A DNA stretch of 32,125 nucleotides from a virus (taxonomy: Duplodnaviria > Heunggongvirae > Uroviricota > Caudoviricetes): positions 1-32,125 of the IMG/VR virus record IMGVR_UViG_2541047945_000009; one strand, 5' to 3'. Shown here piece by piece: positions 11,336-17,019 of the stretch (its first letter is position 1; each line of letters starts with the position of its first letter). A model generated the notes under the pieces. It worked only from the letters and a program-made list of their open reading frames with translations. It was not told where the DNA came from and made no database searches. The translations under genes and the position numbers were made by a program.

Positions 11336-11665
11336 ATGGCAAAAGTATTTACACCAGAAGAGCGGGAAAAAATTAAAGGGCAGGTTGTTGAACTTGTACG
11401 TCTGAGCGGTCGCGAGACGTTACGGGCTCTGGAGGCTAAAACCGGTGCATCAAGGTATTACATAAGCACTCTTGCCAGAGAACTGGTCGCCAGTGGTGAT
11501 GTTTACAATTCTGGCTACGGATTATTCCCGTTTGAGCAGGCGCGTAAAGACTGGCAAAACGCCCGCAAAAAACTATCAAGGGCAAAGATGAAGAAACCGG
11601 TTGTGGTAGATCCAAACCTAATCTGGTCATTACCTGATGGAGAAATCCGTCGCCTTAGTCTTTGA
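11336..11665 (+). CDS. Hypothetical protein, HTH-like
   Basis: ORF from ATG MAKVFTPEEREK… with GGAGG Shine-Dalgarno; …RETLRALEAKTGASRYYISTLAREL… looks like a helix-turn-helix. Track ORF begins at 11321 with a non-ATG codon. Confidence 0.45.
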   Translation: MAKVFTPEEREKIKGQVVELVRLSGRETLRALEAKTGASRYYISTLARELVASGDVYNSGYGLFPFEQARKDWQNARKKLSRAKMKKPVVVDPNLIWSLPDGEIRRLSL

Positions 11666-11700
11666 TACTATGTTTATAATGTTGAAAAAGAGTCTAATAG

Positions 11701-11730
11701 TTGACATTGTATGAAATATGATTGTTATAT
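11701..11730 (+). promoter_or_regulatory. Candidate sigma70 promoter for the NTPase gene
   Basis: Perfect TTGACA at 11701-11706, about 18-bp spacer, TTATAT; roughly 35 bp upstream of the ATG at 11767. Confidence 0.4.
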
Positions 11731-11766
11731 AAAATGATTTTTTTGGAGACTGTTTAAGGTAAACAA

Positions 11767-14025
11767 ATGAAACCAGAATACTTAAGGAAAATAGAATCAT
11801 TGCAACGTGAGGTTGATGATTTCCATCCAGTGCTAAGAGCGCTTCTACCACGTTTGCCGACTGTTACACATGTTGAATATAAGCAAGGACCATCAGAAAA
11901 AGGTGCTGATTTTGTCATAATTAAACGAGATGAGGCATTAGATGAGGAAATATATATTGGGGTTATTTGTAAGGTTGGAAAGATAATTCAGTCAAATAGT
12001 GAGGTCGAACGACAAATAGAAGAGTGTCAATTATACCCACGCTTTATTTCTTCTGGCTCTAAGAACATACATTTGAATGAAATTTGGGTTGTTACTAATT
12101 CATCAATCTCAAATAATGCTCAAGAAAAAATCTACTTAAAATTCAAATCTACAAATATAAAGTTTATAGAAGGTGAGAAAATATGTTCTTTAATCAGTAA
12201 ATATTACCCAGAGTTTTGGGATTTCGAATCCATTAATTATGAGCAATACTTAACAGATACATTGCAAACCATAAGTGATACTCCTGAAAGTTCTTTTTTT
12301 GGTAGTGTTGGCATAAATAACCTTATTGATAGATATGTAAGCAAGGAAGATCATAAAAAACGCAGGCACAGGCCGTTAAAACTGTATAGTGTTGTGAGAG
12401 CCGAGAGATTTATTTTTTTAGAGGGAACTGTTGGCTCCGGGAAAAGTACTTTGCTGAAACAGCTAATTAAAAAAATAAAAGAAGAATATTCTTACGAAAA
12501 AGACTACATCCTTCCAGTATTTTGCCAATACAAGGATGTTCTAGAAAAAAAACTCAATATTGAAAATATAATACAAAGTGTATTAAGTAAGTACAAAATA
12601 CAACATGATGGGAATATTTTATTAATTGTTGATTCGGTGGATGAAGTAAAGGAATCACTTGAGGAAAGGCAAAACAACTTCAGGGACATTGTAGAGAAAG
12701 TATCCAGGAGTGATAAAGTTCGATTACTAGTTGCTTCAAGAATTATGGACTCTCTTCAGGACTATGAAGTTATCGATCAGATGTTTGCAAGATACTCGAT
12801 AATACCACTTAGCACAGGTCAAATAATCGACTTTGTAGATAAAATCTGCAATGACATTAAAATAACAAACAAGCTTAAGAATGGTATAGAAAAAACACCA
12901 CTATTTAAATTCATTCCCAGGACTCCAGTGAGTGCTATTCTTCTAGCAAGAATACTCTCTGATGAGATTAAAGAATTACCATCTACAATGACAGAACTAT
13001 ACTCAAAATACAGTGAGATAGTATTGGGACGATGGGATACATCTAAGGGATTATTATCGCAAACAGAATATGATGTAATAAGTAATATATTAGTAGAAAT
13101 TGCGATGTTTATGATGGATAACTCTCTAAACTGCATATCAATTTCTGAAGTGCAGGACATGTTTTTAAATTATTTGGCCAAAAGAAACTTGAATGTTGAT
13201 GAGGACAAACTTTTCAAAAGACTAATTTATCGCAGTGAAGTAACAACAGTTAATGTTAGAACTAATACGTTCTCATTTCTACACAGATCATTCATGGAGT
13301 ATTTTTACGCTGAAGGACTTAGGAAGCGTGGCTTAATAGACATAAATGATAATATTTATGATATTTATTGGGCAAATAGTTATTTCTTCTATTTTGGTTT
13401 ATTAAGAGACAATGAATATCTTATTGATAAAATTAATGAACTTAAACCTAGTAACGATAAAACAAGATTTTTAAGGTTATTTTATAACGGTTCTTTTTAT
13501 TTGGCTTCATATCTAACTCCGTATAAAAAAATAGCAAGGGGAGTCCTTTTATCATATATAGATGCAGGTAAATTATATGTTGATATTCTCCATGGAAATA
13601 CCGACATCCCGCTGAAGGAGTTTTCACCAGTAGCTCTTCTTTGTATTTTTACAAAGTGTTTAAGTAACAATTACGCATATGATTTTTTCAAATCTGCCTT
13701 GGAAGACTTGTCAGTTCAAATTGAACAATATGAGGAAATTGGGGAACATATTGATTATGCACGTTTCTTCATAGCATCAACACTGAATGAGCTCGGGGAT
13801 AAATCCGCATTTGATAGCTTAGTGGAAAAAAATAAATTAGGTGTTTTGATTAATTTAGGGATAACTCACGTTACAGACGACTCAGGGCTACTAAGTACTA
13901 CGGTTGATAAGTACCTGAAAAAATTCAATAAAAAAGTACGAAGTAACCATGATATGTCTAATTATATATCTAAGTTATATGAGGAATCTACTGGTTCCTT
14001 ACGTACAAACCTACAAATTCAATAA
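11767..14025 (+). CDS. NACHT/STAND-like P-loop NTPase with N-terminal Mrr-like (PD-(D/E)xK-like) domain; candidate antiphage protein
   Basis: 752-aa ORF. Walker A GTVGSGKST (aa 220-228, nt 12424-12450); Walker B LLIVDSVDE (aa 285-293) followed by RLLVASR, the hhhhD[GAS]xDE + sensor pattern typical of NACHT. N-terminus …GADFVIIKRDEALDEEIYIGVICK… resembles an Mrr-type nuclease core. Strongly AT-rich compared with flanking genes. Confidence 0.8.
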   Translation: MKPEYLRKIESLQREVDDFHPVLRALLPRLPTVTHVEYKQGPSEKGADFVIIKRDEALDEEIYIGVICKVGKIIQSNSEVERQIEECQLYPRFISSGSKNIHLNEIWVVTNSSISNNAQEKIYLKFKSTNIKFIEGEKICSLISKYYPEFWDFESINYEQYLTDTLQTISDTPESSFFGSVGINNLIDRYVSKEDHKKRRHRPLKLYSVVRAERFIFLEGTVGSGKSTLLKQLIKKIKEEYSYEKDYILPVFCQYKDVLEKKLNIENIIQSVLSKYKIQHDGNILLIVDSVDEVKESLEERQNNFRDIVEKVSRSDKVRLLVASRIMDSLQDYEVIDQMFARYSIIPLSTGQIIDFVDKICNDIKITNKLKNGIEKTPLFKFIPRTPVSAILLARILSDEIKELPSTMTELYSKYSEIVLGRWDTSKGLLSQTEYDVISNILVEIAMFMMDNSLNCISISEVQDMFLNYLAKRNLNVDEDKLFKRLIYRSEVTTVNVRTNTFSFLHRSFMEYFYAEGLRKRGLIDINDNIYDIYWANSYFFYFGLLRDNEYLIDKINELKPSNDKTRFLRLFYNGSFYLASYLTPYKKIARGVLLSYIDAGKLYVDILHGNTDIPLKEFSPVALLCIFTKCLSNNYAYDFFKSALEDLSVQIEQYEEIGEHIDYARFFIASTLNELGDKSAFDSLVEKNKLGVLINLGITHVTDDSGLLSTTVDKYLKKFNKKVRSNHDMSNYISKLYEESTGSLRTNLQIQ

Positions 14026-14037
14026 TAAATAGATTGT

Positions 14038-14070
14038 CACATTGAAGGTAACGTATCGACCTTCAATGTG
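14038..14070 (+). terminator. Hairpin just downstream of the NTPase gene (possible terminator)
   Basis: Perfect 11-bp inverted repeat CACATTGAAGG / CCTTCAATGTG with 11-nt loop, followed by moderately U-rich ATTATTATCCTCTT. Confidence 0.3.
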
Positions 14071-14687
14071 ATTATTATCCTCTTAATAATATAGCCTAGG
14101 CTACTTTCGACTTTCTGAGGCACAGAGATTGCAGAATGTATCAATCATAGTGAAGCTATCGTAAATGTCCGCACGTTTCTACAGATAGTCAGATTTGAGT
14201 GAACTGCCTCCGCAAAATGCTGGTTGGGGCCTGACTTAATACATCTGAAGAAGTGTTGGTTATGTTTGGCTGTTATGAATCAGATAATTGATATGTTGAT
14301 TAGAGGAGAAGATAGAATCAACATGGTTGTTTTTCGTATAACTATTTGTTTTACTTTTAGTTTATGCATTCTGTGTGTTAGGAGTAAGTTATTAAAGTTT
14401 AACCAAAAAATCTTGATGTCGTCCACATAGATTACTGTTACTGAACCTTATTGTGTGCATTAGTTGTGTTTTGAAATTTCAATTTAATTATTTATGATGT
14501 GTATTTTTAACGATAAATGTTTTCTGGGTAAAAGACAGTGGGGGATGAGATAGGCAATATATCATTAATCTTGATTATCTCCAGGATGCCTTTACTGTTC
14601 ATATAAATAAATCACATGCGCATCAAGTAATGTAAAGGCATCCTTTTAGTTATATCTTATTAAATGTTAATGCTTTGAGTGGAAAAC

Positions 14688-14840
14688 ATGATTCCAGCAA
14701 TTATCATATGGCTACTTTATAAAAATAATGCCCATATAAAACAACAAGTGAAAAGGATTACGGATAAAAAAGGAGCGAGATGTGCAAAGTTGTTATTTTC
14801 CATGTTTAACCACCTTAAACAATTGATGATGACGGGATGA
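14688..14840 (+). CDS. Small ORF (50 aa), possibly a small membrane protein
   Basis: MIPAIIIWLLYKNNAHIKQQVKRITDKKGARCAKLLFSMFNHLKQLMMTG; weak Shine-Dalgarno; preceded by a 12-bp inverted repeat (14584-14642) and followed by a hairpin (14865-14899). Could be non-coding. Confidence 0.2.
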   Translation: MIPAIIIWLLYKNNAHIKQQVKRITDKKGARCAKLLFSMFNHLKQLMMTG

Positions 14841-15055
14841 TTGCATCTGCAATGCTTTTATTGAAATGTTATGATAAAAAAGAACTTTTTCATAACATTA
14901 AAATGCAATTTATCTAATCGTTTTTAATAATAAGTGTGGTATTTCTATCCTTGTACCAGCTATTTAGACTGGCCCCCTGAATCACCAGACAACCAATATC
15001 ACTTATTTAAGTGATAGTCTTAATACTAGTTTTTAGGCTAGTCATTGGAGAGCAG

Positions 15056-15421
15056 ATGATTGATGTCTTAGGACCGGAGAAACGCAGACGGCGTACCACA
15101 CAGGAAAAGATCGCAATTGTTCAGCAGAGCTTTGAACCAGGGATGACGGTCTCCCTCGTTGCCCGGCAACATGGTGTAGCAGCCAGCCAGTTATTTCTCT
15201 GGCGTAAGCAATACCAGGAAGGAAGTCTTACTGCTGTCGCCGCCGGAGAACAGGTTGTTCCTGCCTCTGAACTTGCTGCCGCCATGAAGCAGATTAAAGA
15301 ACTCCAGCGCCTGCTCGGCAAGAAAACGATGGAAAATGAACTCCTCAAAGAAGCCGTTGAATATGGACGGGCAAAAAAGTGGATAGCGCACGCGCCCTTA
15401 TTGCCCGGGGATGGGGAGTAA
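15056..15421 (+). CDS. insC: IS2 OrfA (InsC), HTH transposase subunit
   Basis: 121 aa from [24 protein letters not shown]…, matching IS2 InsC from memory. Confidence 0.9.
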
Positions 15422-16284
15422 GCTTAGTCAGCCGTTGTCTCCGGGTGTCGCGTGCGCAGTTGCACGTCATTCTCAGACGAACCGATGACTGGATGGATGG
15501 CCGCCGCAGTCGTCACACTGATGATACGGATGTGCTTCTCCGTATACACCATGTTATCGGAGAGCTGCCCACGTATGGTTATCGTCGGGTATGGGCGCTG
15601 CTTCGCAGACAGGCAGAACTTGATGGTATGCCTGCGATCAATGCCAAACGTGTTTACCGGATCATGCGCCAGAATGCGCTGTTGCTTGAGCGAAAACCTG
15701 CTGTACCGCCATCGAAACGGGCACATACAGGCAGAGTGGCTGTGAAAGAAAGTAATCAGCGATGGTGCTCTGACGGGTTCGAGTTCCGCTGTGATAACGG
15801 AGAAAAACTGCGAGTCACGTTCGCGCTGGACTGCTGTGACCGTGAGGCACTGCACTGGGCGGTCACTACGGGCGGCTTCAACAGTGAAACAGTACAGGAC
15901 GTCATGCTGGGAGCGGTGGAACGCCGCTTCGGCAACGAGCTTCCGGCGTCTCCAGTAGAGTGGCTGACGGATAATGGTTCATGCTACCGGGCTAATGAAA
16001 CACGGCAGTTTGCCCGGATGTTGGGGCTTGAACCGAAGAGCACGGCGGTGCGGAGTCCGGAGAGTAACGGCATAGCAGAGAGCTTCGTGAAAACGATAAA
16101 GCGTGACTACATCAGTGTCATGCCCAAACCAGACGGGTTAACGGCAGCAAAGAACCTTGCAGAGGCGTTCGAGCATTATAACGAATGGCATCCGCATAGT
16201 GCACTGGGTTATCGCTCGCCACGGGAATATCTACGGCAGCAAGCCAGTAATGGGTTAAGTGATAACAGGTGTCTGGAAATATAG
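15379..16284 (+). CDS. insD: IS2 OrfB (InsD), DDE transposase catalytic subunit
   Basis: 301-aa ORF overlapping insC in the -1 frame; matches IS2 InsD from memory. Confidence 0.9.
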
Positions 16285-16419
16285 GGGCAAATCCACTATT
16301 TGATATGTAGTGTTTGTTCATGCTATGTGGAGCTTTACACCATAGCCAGTTTATTTATACTTTATTCGTCAGCCTGAACAACTGGCATCTGCTGCACTGC
16401 GCCATAGAGAGATTGAGAA

Positions 16420-17019
16420 ATGGCGCATATACAACTAGTCAAACAAACCTCTTCCGGATTACTTCTCCCGGCGACGCCGGAGAGTTGCGATTTTCTGCAT
16501 CAAATCAAAATAGGTGAGTGGATACACGCAGACTTTAAGCGTGTGCGTAACTACGCATTCCACAAGCGTTTTTTCAAACTCCTGCAACTGGGATTCGATT
16601 ACTGGACTCCGGTCGGTGGGGCGATCACGCCTCGCGAACGAGAACTGCTGTCTGGTTTCGTTGATTACCTGTGCGAATCAGTTGGTCGGGAACACACGCC
16701 AGCCCTGAGTGATGCCGCAGAGCAATACCTTAACACCGTTGCGACTCGTAGAACCCGGGATACGGCGTTGCTAAAGTCGTTTGAGGCTTTCCGCGAGTGG
16801 GTAACCATTCAGGCCGGATTTTACACCGAGCATATTTATCCGGACGGTAGCCGTGGGCGTCGGGCAAAATCCATCGCTTTTGCGAATATGGACGAAACCG
16901 AGTTTCAGCAGGTTTATAAATCTGTACTGAATGTGCTGTGGAACTGGATTCTGTTCCGTAAATTCTCCTCTCAGGAGGAAGTTGAAAATGTGGCCGCACA
17001 ACTACTGGAGTTTGCGTAA
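16420..17019 (+). CDS. nin-region protein (DUF1367-like, uncertain)
   Basis: 199-aa ORF MAHIQLVKQTSSG… at the head of a coupled three-gene operon; family name recalled from memory and not verified. Confidence 0.6.
   Translation: MAHIQLVKQTSSGLLLPATPESCDFLHQIKIGEWIHADFKRVRNYAFHKRFFKLLQLGFDYWTPVGGAITPRERELLSGFVDYLCESVGREHTPALSDAAEQYLNTVATRRTRDTALLKSFEAFREWVTIQAGFYTEHIYPDGSRGRRAKSIAFANMDETEFQQVYKSVLNVLWNWILFRKFSSQEEVENVAAQLLEFA

What the first reader, a model, noticed from the sequence alone, without database searches (positions are those of the whole stretch)
14026..14964. ORF-poor AT-rich tail of the island with structured repeats and a 50-codon ORF
About 940 bp downstream of the NTPase gene has no ORF of 60 aa or more that looks real, yet contains a perfect 11-bp-stem hairpin (14038-14070), a 12-bp palindrome TAGCCTAGGCTA (14092-14103), a 12-bp inverted repeat GGATGCCTTTAC / GTAAAGGCATCC around a ~35-nt spacer (14584-14642), and a 50-codon ORF with a hydrophobic N-terminus (14688-14840) followed by an AT-rich hairpin (14865-14899). 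This could hold a small accessory protein or regulatory RNA of the NTPase system, or be the decayed remnant of a partner gene.
Basis: seen in the sequence. Interest (0 to 1): 0.4.

Follow-up and report, generated by a model that had tools for sequence, protein, structure and literature searches.

The report
Mosaic prophage spacer hiding a 28-codon gene
The 940-bp "tail" is not part of the NACHT defence gene but a patchwork of three unrelated spacer pieces at a variable cargo site of an E. coli Rac-like prophage; the 50-codon ORF is not conserved, while a never-annotated 28-codon membrane-peptide gene lies on the opposite strand in about a fifth of complete E. coli genomes.

Summary
The region is not one unit and not an appendage of the NACHT gene.

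- **Three layers.** A (14026-14277) travels with the NACHT gene and holds its terminator-like hairpin. B (14258-14715) is left over from a different cargo cassette. C (14714-14964) is prophage backbone and continues at 16301 after a 1331-bp IS2-like insertion.
- **The 50-codon + ORF is not real.** It exists only in this rare allele; a 1-nt indel stops it after 11 codons elsewhere, and its 5' part has no homologue in the other backbone lineages.
- **A real gene lies antisense to it.** A 28-codon ORF on the minus strand (14803..14717, MENNNFAHLAPFLSVILFTCCFIWALFL) is intact in 104 of 104 loci. Substitutions by codon position are 6/11/22 and dN/dS is 0.06-0.44. It has a Shine-Dalgarno site and a 19-residue hydrophobic tail, matches no Pfam, NCBIfam or PHROG family, and is annotated in no record examined.
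- **The module.** This ~224-bp unit occurs in about 1175 of 5426 complete E. coli genomes. The AT-rich hairpin sits in its 5' leader.
- **Possible regulation.** Promoter-like sites on both strands are kept in every lineage, which suggests an overlapping antisense RNA in a hok/sok-like layout. That part is inference only.

Overall: an ordinary mosaic spacer plus one modestly interesting new small gene.

The parts
11767..14025 (+). NACHT-domain defence gene (752 aa), given as context. It is the cargo of this copy of the hotspot.
   Evidence: Pfam NACHT (3e-9), NCH1 (2e-38) and a weak N-terminal Mrr_cat match. RefSeq calls it 'NACHT domain-containing protein'.
14026..14277 (+). Layer A: the 3' flank that travels with the NACHT gene.
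   Evidence: 92-95% identical behind the 97%-identity NACHT genes of L009, L010, L058-L060 and L062-L064, where a hokD locus follows instead of layers B and C.
14037..14071 (+). Hairpin 11 nt after the NACHT stop codon: 13-bp perfect stem, 9-nt loop, then UUAUUAUCCUCUU. Likely terminator or 3' stabiliser of the NACHT mRNA.
   Evidence: z = -4.6. Identical in L009. NACHT homologues at 56% identity each have a different strong hairpin at the same place. The consensus terminator scan did not call it.
14092..14103 (.). 12-bp palindrome TAGCCTAGGCTA. It reads TAGCTTAAGCTA in L009, a symmetric double change.
   Evidence: No function assigned.
14184..14272 (+). Sub-piece of layer A that also occurs upstream of hok loci without any NACHT gene.
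   Evidence: 85% identical to L011 3001-3089, next to a truncated hok. It continues into the pre-hok spacer in L009.
14258..14277 (.). A/B recombination junction. Shared microhomology GGTTATGT..GCTGTT.
   Evidence: The window follows L009 up to 14277 and follows L002 from 14258 on.
14258..14715 (+). Layer B: spacer that otherwise lies beside a DUF1971 gene cassette. Here it is orphaned.
   Evidence: 85-93% identical in 458 other E. coli genomes, in which a DUF1971 gene is its left neighbour in the three annotated examples (L002, L003, L005). Absent from the other backbone lineages.
14275..14430 (+). 51-codon ORF (MNQIIDMLIRGEDRINMVVFRITICF...). Judged not coding.
   Evidence: It looked constrained across 3 alleles. 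Across 20 alleles I count about 4 synonymous against about 15 non-synonymous changes, plus a nonsense codon in L093 and C-terminal lengths of 43, 47 or 51 aa.
14583..14648 (+). 13-bp stem with a 36-nt loop, followed by TTTT. Likely a + strand terminator that closes layer B ahead of the convergent small gene.
   Evidence: One pair goes G-C to A.C to A-T across alleles. Other changes give wobble pairs or a mismatch. A 56-nt deletion ends just before the stem in the 85% allele.
14688..14840 (+). Not a gene.
   Evidence: Stop after 11 codons in L002 and L005. No homologous 5' part in the other lineages. Its frame does worse than the opposite-strand ORF on synonymous/non-synonymous counts.
14717..14803 (-). 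28-codon ORF MENNNFAHLAPFLSVILFTCCFIWALFL. A real, unannotated small gene, predicted to be a single-pass membrane peptide.
   Evidence: Intact in 104 of 104 loci, 16 distinct alleles in three lineages. Minimum substitutions by codon position 6/11/22, chi-square p = 0.006. dN/dS 0.06-0.44. 10 of 15 changes synonymous for L104 vs L005, p = 1e-4. Kyte-Doolittle mean 2.3-2.6 for residues 10-28. No Pfam, NCBIfam or PHROG hit. No annotation in any record examined.
14810..14816 (-). Shine-Dalgarno site AAGGTGG, 6 nt before the ATG of the 28-codon ORF.
   Evidence: Variants are AAGGTGA, AAGGTAG, AAAGTGA and AAAGCGA.
14797..14823 (+). Candidate promoter for an antisense RNA: TTTCCA, 15 nt, AACAAT. The -35 overlaps the ORF's start codon.
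   Evidence: At the same position in every lineage there is a 5/6 -10 hexamer of different sequence (TATGAT, CATAAT, AATAAT), at 15-16 nt spacing. This window's allele has 4/6. Consensus match only.
14865..14899 (-). AT-rich hairpin in the 5' leader of the 28-codon ORF, and its mirror image in the putative antisense RNA.
   Evidence: The 8-bp outer stem is 100% paired in 16 alleles. The two one-sided changes are G.U on the minus strand and would be A.C on the plus strand. The 17-nt spacer has unrelated sequence in the three lineages and is self-complementary in each.
14919..14936 (+). Small hairpin CGTTT-N8-AAGTG followed by a T-rich tail. Candidate 3' end of the antisense RNA.
   Evidence: CGCTT/AAGCG in lineage 2, which the scan calls terminator-like (L009). 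CACTT/AAGTG in L104, a G-C to A-T double change. The wobble pairs in this allele work on the + strand only. Very weak stem.
14927..14932 (-). Invariant TATTAT, the candidate -10 of the small gene's promoter. The -35 elements are weak.
   Evidence: Present in all 27 intact distinct 5' regions, 121-128 nt before the ATG. Consensus match only.
14714..14964 (.). Layer C: prophage backbone. The self-contained small-gene module is about 14714-14937, possibly to 14957.
   Evidence: About 72-76% identical in roughly 700 further E. coli genomes, 1175 of 5426 in all. It begins within 3 nt of the ORF's stop codon. The L104 lineage shares only this block. It also lies between hokD and a DUF968-type module (L053).
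14965..16295 (+). IS2-like (IS3-family) insertion, 1331 bp, with 5-bp target duplication CTATT (14960-14964 and 16296-16300).
   Evidence: RefSeq calls it 'IS3 family transposase, programmed frameshift'. The same allele without the IS exists (L061, 100% identical). The name IS2 comes from my own knowledge of its ends.
16301..16419 (+). Rest of the original spacer: the near-invariant leader of the DUF1367 / DUF1364 / Q-like operon, with promoter-like TTTACA-16-TATACT at 16334-16361.

Best explanation
The window is a Rac-like lambdoid prophage of E. coli. Between its replication genes (ydaV, DUF1627, DUF977) and its DUF1367 / DUF1364 / Q-like antiterminator genes lies a site where different strains carry different cargo. 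In this copy the cargo is a single-gene NACHT defence protein. The 'tail' is what recombination left between that cargo and the backbone, in three pieces.

- **Piece A (14026-14277)** came in with the NACHT gene. It supplies a strong hairpin right after the stop codon, which most likely terminates or stabilises the NACHT mRNA. It also holds a fragment of a spacer that elsewhere precedes hok loci.
- **Piece B (14258-14715)** is an orphaned spacer from a different cassette (DUF1971 type). Its ORF is not under coding constraint. Its 13-bp hairpin plus T-run probably acts as a + strand terminator.
- **Piece C (from 14714)** is backbone and contains the one real gene. This is a 28-codon ORF on the minus strand encoding a peptide with a short polar head and a 19-residue hydrophobic tail, preceded by a Shine-Dalgarno site and a leader of about 115-120 nt that holds the AT-rich hairpin.

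Shown: the mosaic structure, the non-conservation of the + ORFs, and purifying selection on the intact 28-codon ORF.

Inferred: the peptide inserts into the inner membrane and is expressed from the prophage like other lysogen-expressed cargo. Its mRNA would start about 7 nt after the invariant TATTAT. A + strand RNA of about 100-120 nt would start near 14830 from a promoter overlapping the ORF's start codon. It would run antisense through the leader hairpin and control the peptide's synthesis. That is a hok/sok-like layout without sequence similarity to hok/sok.

The IS2-like element later split the spacer 8 nt beyond the module.
For: - Prophage identity and gene order.
- Three layers with separate distributions: A with NACHT only; B with the DUF1971 cassette only; C in 1175 of 5426 genomes beside many different cargos.
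- Junction microhomology.
- Pre-IS allele.
- Loss of the + ORF.
- B ORF evolving neutrally, with one nonsense allele.
- 28-codon ORF: intact in 104 of 104 loci; codon-position bias 6/11/22 (p = 0.006); dN/dS 0.06-0.44; binomial p = 1e-4; hydropathy 2.3-2.6.
- The homology block starts at the ORF's stop codon. L104 shares only the module.
- Hairpin kept with lineage-specific distal stems.
- Promoter-like sites kept on both strands, with different -10 sequences of equal quality.
- NACHT genes are usually solitary. Unrelated hairpins follow the stop codon of distant NACHT homologues.
Against: - No transcript or protein data were available, so every promoter, terminator and RNA end is a consensus match in AT-rich DNA, where such matches are common.
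- The generic scan called no promoter or terminator inside the module in this window.
- The antisense -35 is fixed by the ORF's start codons anyway, so its conservation is not independent evidence.
- This window's allele has the weakest antisense -10 (AACAAT, 15-nt spacer).
- The hairpin shows no double-sided covariation in its outer stem. Its distal stems pair in different registers, so they cannot be scored formally.
- Within closely related alleles the coding signal is weak (window vs L007: 6 of 17 changes synonymous, p = 0.12). The strong signal rests mainly on comparisons with one divergent lineage, L104.
- The ORF was not found outside Escherichia and Shigella in the 39 DUF1367 loci examined.
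Confidence: 0.72

Rival explanations
1. First reader's reading. The tail belongs to the NACHT system, as a small accessory protein (the 50-codon + ORF), a regulatory RNA of the NTPase, or the decayed remnant of a partner gene.
For: Layer A (14026-14277), with the hairpin and the palindrome, is co-inherited with the NACHT gene in two island variants.
Against: In the second island variant a hokD locus follows A, not B and C. The + ORF is frameshifted elsewhere. B and C occur in hundreds of genomes without any NACHT gene. NACHT homologues at 56% identity have no related tail and no conserved downstream gene. No protein-family hit was found for any tail ORF. bNACHT genes are rarely in operons.
Confidence: 0.04
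2. The conserved block 14714-14937 is purely cis-regulatory DNA or RNA for the DUF1367 / Q-like operon, for example a terminator or insulator that gates read-through into the antiterminator gene. On this view the 28-codon ORF is incidental.
For: The block lies directly upstream of the antiterminator operon in most loci. It contains conserved hairpins and a terminator-like site on the + strand. Its most invariant stretches are outside the ORF.
Against: Third-position bias, dN/dS as low as 0.06-0.17, and 104 of 104 intact ORFs of identical length in a region whose flanks are full of indels. The homology block ends exactly at the stop codon. The module also occurs in front of a different downstream gene (L053) and with no such operon nearby (L104).
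Confidence: 0.15
3. The module is an ordinary small membrane-protein gene with no antisense regulation and no toxicity. The promoter-like sites on the + strand would then be chance matches in AT-rich DNA.
For: The coding evidence does not depend on any antisense RNA. The -35 of the antisense site is fixed by coding. The generic scans show as many promoter-like hits in shuffles as in the real sequence.
Against: The antisense -10 keeps 5/6 matches at the same position through three different hexamers. The small hairpin at the predicted 3' end has a double change that keeps pairing, and wobble pairs that work only on the + strand.
Confidence: 0.35

Closest known systems
Type I toxin-antitoxin loci with cis-antisense RNA (hok/sok, ibs/sib, ldr/rdl)
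   Same: A very short hydrophobic ORF (28 aa) with a long structured leader. A candidate promoter on the opposite strand would give a short RNA antisense to that leader. It is a compact self-contained unit (~224 bp) in a prophage, often right next to a hokD locus.
   Different: No sequence or profile similarity to any known toxin family. There is no mok-like overlapping reading frame and no charged C-terminal tail. Neither toxicity nor the antisense RNA has been shown. It is single-copy, with a median of 1 place per genome.
Variable cargo ('moron' or defence) hotspots of temperate phages, e.g. the P2/P4 hotspots (PMC9122126) and the lambda nin region
   Same: A fixed backbone position is occupied in different strains by different cargo. 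Some is annotated as anti-phage (NACHT, IteA/IteS). Other cassettes are DUF262 + TPR, an ATP-dependent nuclease, DUF4145, QueH and hok. Cargo has its own terminators and recombination junctions at short microhomologies.
   Different: This site is in Rac-like lambdoid prophages, between DUF977 and DUF1367. I did not check whether this particular hotspot has been described before.
Bacterial NACHT (NLR-related) antiphage proteins (10.1101/2022.07.19.500537)
   Same: The upstream gene has NACHT and NCH1 domains and stands alone, as reported for most bNACHT genes.
   Different: This concerns only the neighbour of the finding. Apart from a 3' hairpin, the tail is not part of it.
Rho-independent terminators
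   Same: Strong stems immediately after a stop codon (14037-14071), and before a T-run (14583-14648).
   Different: The first has an interrupted U-tract and the second a 36-nt loop. Neither meets the scan's consensus.

Membership tests
Type I toxin-antitoxin system | Small (under about 60 aa) hydrophobic, membrane-directed peptide ORF | tested here: met
   28 aa. Residues 10-28 have a mean Kyte-Doolittle value of 2.3-2.6. The ORF is under purifying selection.
Type I toxin-antitoxin system | Antisense or partly complementary small RNA encoded at the same locus | tested here: inconclusive
   A promoter-like site is kept on the opposite strand in all lineages, and a terminator-like hairpin is present in lineage 2. 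No transcript data were available, and the -35 is constrained by coding.
Type I toxin-antitoxin system | Overproduction of the peptide is toxic and the RNA neutralises it | not testable with these tools
   Needs an experiment.
Type I toxin-antitoxin system | Sequence membership in a described toxin family (Hok/Gef, Ldr, Ibs, ShoB, TisB, Zor, DinQ and others) | tested here: not met
   No Pfam, NCBIfam or PHROG hit at E up to 10 apart from noise. No Rfam match in 13500-16500.
Accessory component of a NACHT defence system | Co-inheritance with the NACHT gene across island variants and homologues | tested here: not met
   Only 14026-14277 is co-inherited. 14278-14964 is replaced by a hokD locus in the 97% variant. 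Nothing is shared with the 56% homologues.
   Stop after 11 codons in L002 and L005. The 5' part is absent from the other lineages.
Protein-coding gene (minus-strand ORF 14803..14717) | Reading frame kept, excess of synonymous change, ribosome-binding site | tested here: met
   104 of 104 intact. Codon-position counts 6/11/22. dN/dS 0.06-0.44. AAGGTGG 6 nt before the ATG.
Rho-independent terminator (14037-14071 and 14583-14648) | G+C-containing stem followed directly by a U-run | tested here: inconclusive
   The stems are strong (z about -4.3 to -4.6). The first has UUAUUAUCCUCUU and the second UUUU after a 36-nt loop. Neither was called by the scan.
IS2 (IS3 family) insertion | About 1.3-kb element with a two-ORF frameshifted transposase, terminal inverted repeats and a 5-bp target duplication | tested here: met
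   1331 bp. CTATT is duplicated on both sides. The empty site exists in L002 and L061. RefSeq calls it 'IS3 family transposase, programmed frameshift'. The specific name IS2 rests on my own knowledge of its ends.
Known RNA family (Rfam) | Covariance-model match at or near the gathering score | tested here: not met
   The best hits are eukaryotic snoRNA and miRNA models at E of 1.9 or worse, far below their gathering scores.

The most novel reading that the evidence does not exclude
The ~224-bp module (14714-14937) is a previously unrecognised type I toxin-antitoxin-like unit. It would consist of a 28-aa membrane peptide whose leader is overlapped by a cis-antisense RNA of about 100-120 nt. About 22% of complete E. 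coli genomes carry it, at the edge of the cargo hotspot of Rac-like prophages. At 87 nt including its stop codon it may simply be too short for routine gene calling.
Probability: 0.3. Interest if true: 0.55.

Novelty: new member of a known kind. Interest (0 to 1): 0.33.

Why it matters
- **For the original question,** the result is a correction. The spacer behind a prophage-borne defence gene should not be read as part of that system. Comparing alleles splits it cleanly into cargo flank, orphaned neighbour flank and backbone.
- **The useful by-product** is a conserved, never-annotated 28-codon gene. It is present in roughly a fifth of complete E. coli genomes and is intact in all 104 loci examined.
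- **If it is an antisense-controlled membrane peptide,** it adds a family to the short list of E. coli type I toxin-like loci. It might also help to stabilise or mark the cargo hotspot.
- **If it is only a small membrane protein,** it is one more example of how much sub-30-codon coding capacity annotation pipelines miss.

Tried and rejected
- **Rfam.** A scan of 13500-16500 at E up to 10 gave only noise.
- **Layer B + ORF (14275-14430).** Its hydrophobic core with a basic tail looked like a type I toxin, and 3 of 3 changes were synonymous across three alleles. With 20 alleles it evolves neutrally and one allele has a nonsense codon. Rejected.
- **A ~145-nt sRNA in layer B.** I considered an RNA from the promoter-like TTGAAA-16-TATGAT (14471-14498) to the 13-bp hairpin. 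The 85% allele, carried by about 300 genomes, has lost 56 nt of its body. Rejected as a conserved RNA.
- **Large protein database search.** Structure prediction and the representative search also need 30 aa or more.
- **tblastn against phage records.** Found only four induced Rac-like phages, with no annotation under the match.
- **Literature.** A full-text search for the peptide strings returned nothing.
- **K-12.** The Qin prophage, which has the hokD - rem - ydfU order, lacks the module.
- **Other genera.** DUF1367 loci in Salmonella, Citrobacter, Pantoea, Klebsiella and others lack it.
- **Promoter scoring.** A position-weight scan for sigma-70 promoters gave no single strong site shared by all lineages. 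The sites I propose emerged only from position-by-position comparison.
- **RNAalifold.** Both strands gave weak consensus energies, -9.6 and -13.2 kcal/mol. Apart from the hairpins there is no extensive structured RNA.
- **Arms of the AT hairpin as -35 and -10 of a promoter.** The constant 17-nt spacer suggested this. I did not adopt it, because the spacer is self-complementary in every lineage and both arm changes keep G.U pairs on one strand.
Full report
**What the window is.** The 939-bp region is 100% identical to chromosomal sequence of six complete E. coli genomes. In the annotated copy it lies in a Rac-like lambdoid prophage. The gene order there is intR, xisR, recET, kilR, sieB, repressor genes, ydaT, ydaV, DUF1627 and a truncated DUF977. 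Then come a 'NACHT domain-containing protein', the unannotated tail and an IS3-family element. After that come DUF1367, DUF1364, DUF1133, lysis genes and trkG. Phage records annotate DUF1133 as antitermination protein Q. The upstream gene has Pfam NACHT and NCH1 domains and a weak N-terminal Mrr_cat match. That makes it a bacterial NLR-related defence protein. [quoted passage not shown]

**Checking the observation.**
- The 13-bp perfect hairpin 14037-14071.
- The palindrome 14092-14103.
- The 13-bp inverted repeat 14583-14595 / 14632-14644.
- The + ORF 14688-14840.
- The AT-rich hairpin 14865-14899.
- Low G+C, 0.32-0.33.

The three hairpins fold better than shuffles, with z from -3.1 to -4.6. 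Two perfect stems of 11 bp or more occur where shuffles give 0.02 on average. The right-hand limit, 14964, is the left end of a 1331-bp IS2-like element (14965-16295). It has a 5-bp duplication CTATT on both sides. The uninterrupted allele exists (L061, 100% identical). The original spacer therefore ran on to the DUF1367 start at 16420.

**The tail is a three-layer mosaic.** Comparison with 5426 complete E. coli genomes and with IMG/VR contigs splits it into pieces with different histories.

Layer A, 14026-14277, is found only behind this NACHT gene. In the second island variant (97% identical gene; L009, L010 and several IMG/VR contigs) it is 92-95% identical. There it is followed by a small hydrophobic ORF and a hokD locus, not by the rest of the tail. 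Its last 90 nt (14184-14272) also occur, without any NACHT gene, upstream of a truncated hok (L011).

Layer B, 14258-14715, is 85-93% identical in 458 other genomes. In the three annotated examples (L002, L003, L005) it lies next to the start of a divergently transcribed DUF1971 gene. Here that gene is gone. The A/B switch falls in the shared motif GGTTATGT..GCTGTT.

Layer C, from 14714 on, is about 72-76% identical in roughly 700 further genomes, giving 1175 of 5426 in all. In those genomes it follows whatever cargo occupies the site:
- IteA/IteS.
- DUF262 plus a TPR protein.
- QueH plus hokD.
- KilA-N, hok and DUF1971.
- An ATP-dependent nuclease.
- DUF4145.

NACHT homologues at 56% identity share nothing with the tail. 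Each has its own strong hairpin right after the stop codon. The 14037-14071 hairpin is therefore best read as a generic terminator or 3' stabiliser of the NACHT mRNA. Nothing else in the tail belongs to that gene.

**The ORFs on the + strand are not genes.** In the 93% and 85% alleles one extra base gives ATG ATT CCA G.A ACT .AT CAT G.G GCT ACT TTA TAA, a stop after 11 codons. In the other backbone lineages the sequence left of 14716 is unrelated cargo terminator. A 51-codon ORF in layer B (14275-14430) at first looked constrained. Across 20 alleles I count about 4 synonymous against about 15 non-synonymous changes, with a nonsense allele and three different C-terminal lengths.

**A real gene on the other strand.** AAGGTGG sits 6 nt before its ATG. 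The evidence that it is coding:
- It is intact and of identical length in all 104 loci that contain its core, although the flanks are full of indels. These loci give 16 distinct alleles in three lineages from E. coli, Shigella, E. ruysiae and IMG/VR contigs.
- The minimum number of substitutions by codon position is 6/11/22 (chi-square p = 0.006).
- Pairwise dN/dS is 0.06-0.17 between lineages and 0.44 for window vs L007.
- For the most divergent pair 10 of 15 changes are synonymous where 20% is expected (p = 1e-4). The other five frames have 0-5 synonymous changes.
- Replacements in residues 10-28 stay within A, V, I, L, F, C, T, G and S, and mean hydropathy there is 2.3-2.6.
- The backbone homology block begins within 3 nt of its stop codon.

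It has no Pfam, NCBIfam or PHROG match. No annotation lies under it in any record examined. The peptide strings appear in no searchable paper. At 87 nt with its stop codon it is very short; by my recollection that is under the 90-nt minimum of a common gene caller, which may explain its absence from annotation. K-12 lacks it, as do the DUF1367 loci of other genera that I examined.

**The module around it.** The most divergent lineage (L104) shares only the block corresponding to window 14714-14937, perhaps to 14957, and has no DUF1367 nearby. In L053 the block lies between hokD and a DUF968-type module. It is therefore a self-contained unit of about 224 bp.

The AT-rich hairpin (14865-14899) lies in the ORF's leader:
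- Its 8-bp outer stem is paired in all 16 alleles.
- The only two changes are one-sided. They give G.U on the minus strand and would give A.C on the plus strand.
- The 17-nt spacer is unrelated in sequence between the three lineages, yet self-complementary in each: AAAAAG/CTTTTT, ATCT/AGAT and AAAG/CTTT.

This is good, though not formal, evidence for a conserved stem-loop.

Position-by-position comparison shows two promoter-like sites kept in all 27 intact distinct 5' regions. On the ORF strand there is an invariant TATTAT, 121-128 nt before the ATG, with weak -35 elements. On the opposite strand there is TTTCCA, which overlaps the start codon, followed at 15-16 nt by a -10 that differs between lineages (TATGAT, CATAAT, AATAAT) but always matches 5 of 6. 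This window has AACAAT, 4 of 6. Downstream on that strand a small hairpin (14919-14936) followed by a T-rich tail is called terminator-like in lineage 2. It shows a G-C to A-T double change in L104.

Together these suggest two overlapping transcripts. One is an mRNA for the peptide. The other is an antisense RNA of about 100-120 nt across its leader. This is the layout of hok/sok-type loci, without any sequence similarity. The part about transcripts is inference from consensus matches in AT-rich DNA. The generic scans find as many such matches in shuffles, and the ORF's start codon fixes the antisense -35 regardless of any promoter role.

**Layer B hairpin.** The 13-bp stem plus TTTT (14583-14648) is confined to layer B. 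Across alleles one pair goes G-C to A.C to A-T, and other changes are wobble-compatible on the + strand. In the other contexts an ordinary cargo terminator (iteS, hok) occupies the equivalent position just outside the small ORF's stop codon. I read it as the + strand terminator that closes the upstream cassette ahead of the convergent small gene.

**Verdict.** The tail is an ordinary recombination mosaic at a prophage cargo hotspot. Its one point of interest is a widespread, unannotated 28-codon gene with a possible antisense partner.

Noticed in passing
window about 11650-14964, compared with L002, L005-L010 and L051-L056: The site between DUF977 and DUF1367 of Rac-like prophages carries very different cargo in different strains. 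Examples are NACHT, IteA/IteS, DUF262 + TPR, QueH + hokD, KilA-N + hok + DUF1971, an ATP-dependent nuclease, DUF4145 and a 'beta family protein'. It behaves like a defence/moron hotspot.
   Followed up: partly
window 14965-16295; also H4 and H58 (IS1), L008 and L055 (IS3 family): Insertion sequences have repeatedly landed in this AT-rich spacer. In L055 an IS3-family element sits directly in front of the ribosome-binding site of the 28-codon ORF, cutting it off from its leader.
   Followed up: partly
window 16330-16419 (TTTACA-16-TATACT at 16334-16361): A near-invariant stretch of about 90 bp with a 10/12 promoter-like site precedes DUF1367. It is also conserved in front of a different gene in the DUF968-type module (L105, L107). 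An own promoter in front of a Q-like antiterminator operon would be unusual for a lambdoid phage.
   Followed up: no
L009 5796-5885: Between the NACHT flank and hokD there is another short hydrophobic ORF (MLVLKCALAIAAVIAIYCLAVVLMDRLSD) with a strong CAGGAGG site. It has no family match.
   Followed up: no
window 14092-14103 vs L009 5485-5496: The palindrome TAGCCTAGGCTA reads TAGCTTAAGCTA in the other island variant. This is a symmetric double substitution that keeps it a perfect palindrome.
   Followed up: no
window about 11336-11653: The DUF977 gene is truncated at its C-terminus at the left edge of the low-G+C NACHT island (RefSeq pseudogene in L001 and L009). The island therefore replaced backbone sequence on that side.
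   Followed up: no
L011 2798-3239: A feature annotated 'tRNA-OTHER' lies just upstream of the spacer piece shared with window 14184-14272. The hok gene there is truncated by an internal deletion.
   Followed up: no
window 11767-12200 (NACHT protein residues 23-143): There is a weak Mrr_cat (restriction endonuclease) match at the N-terminus, which suggests a nuclease effector domain.
   Followed up: no
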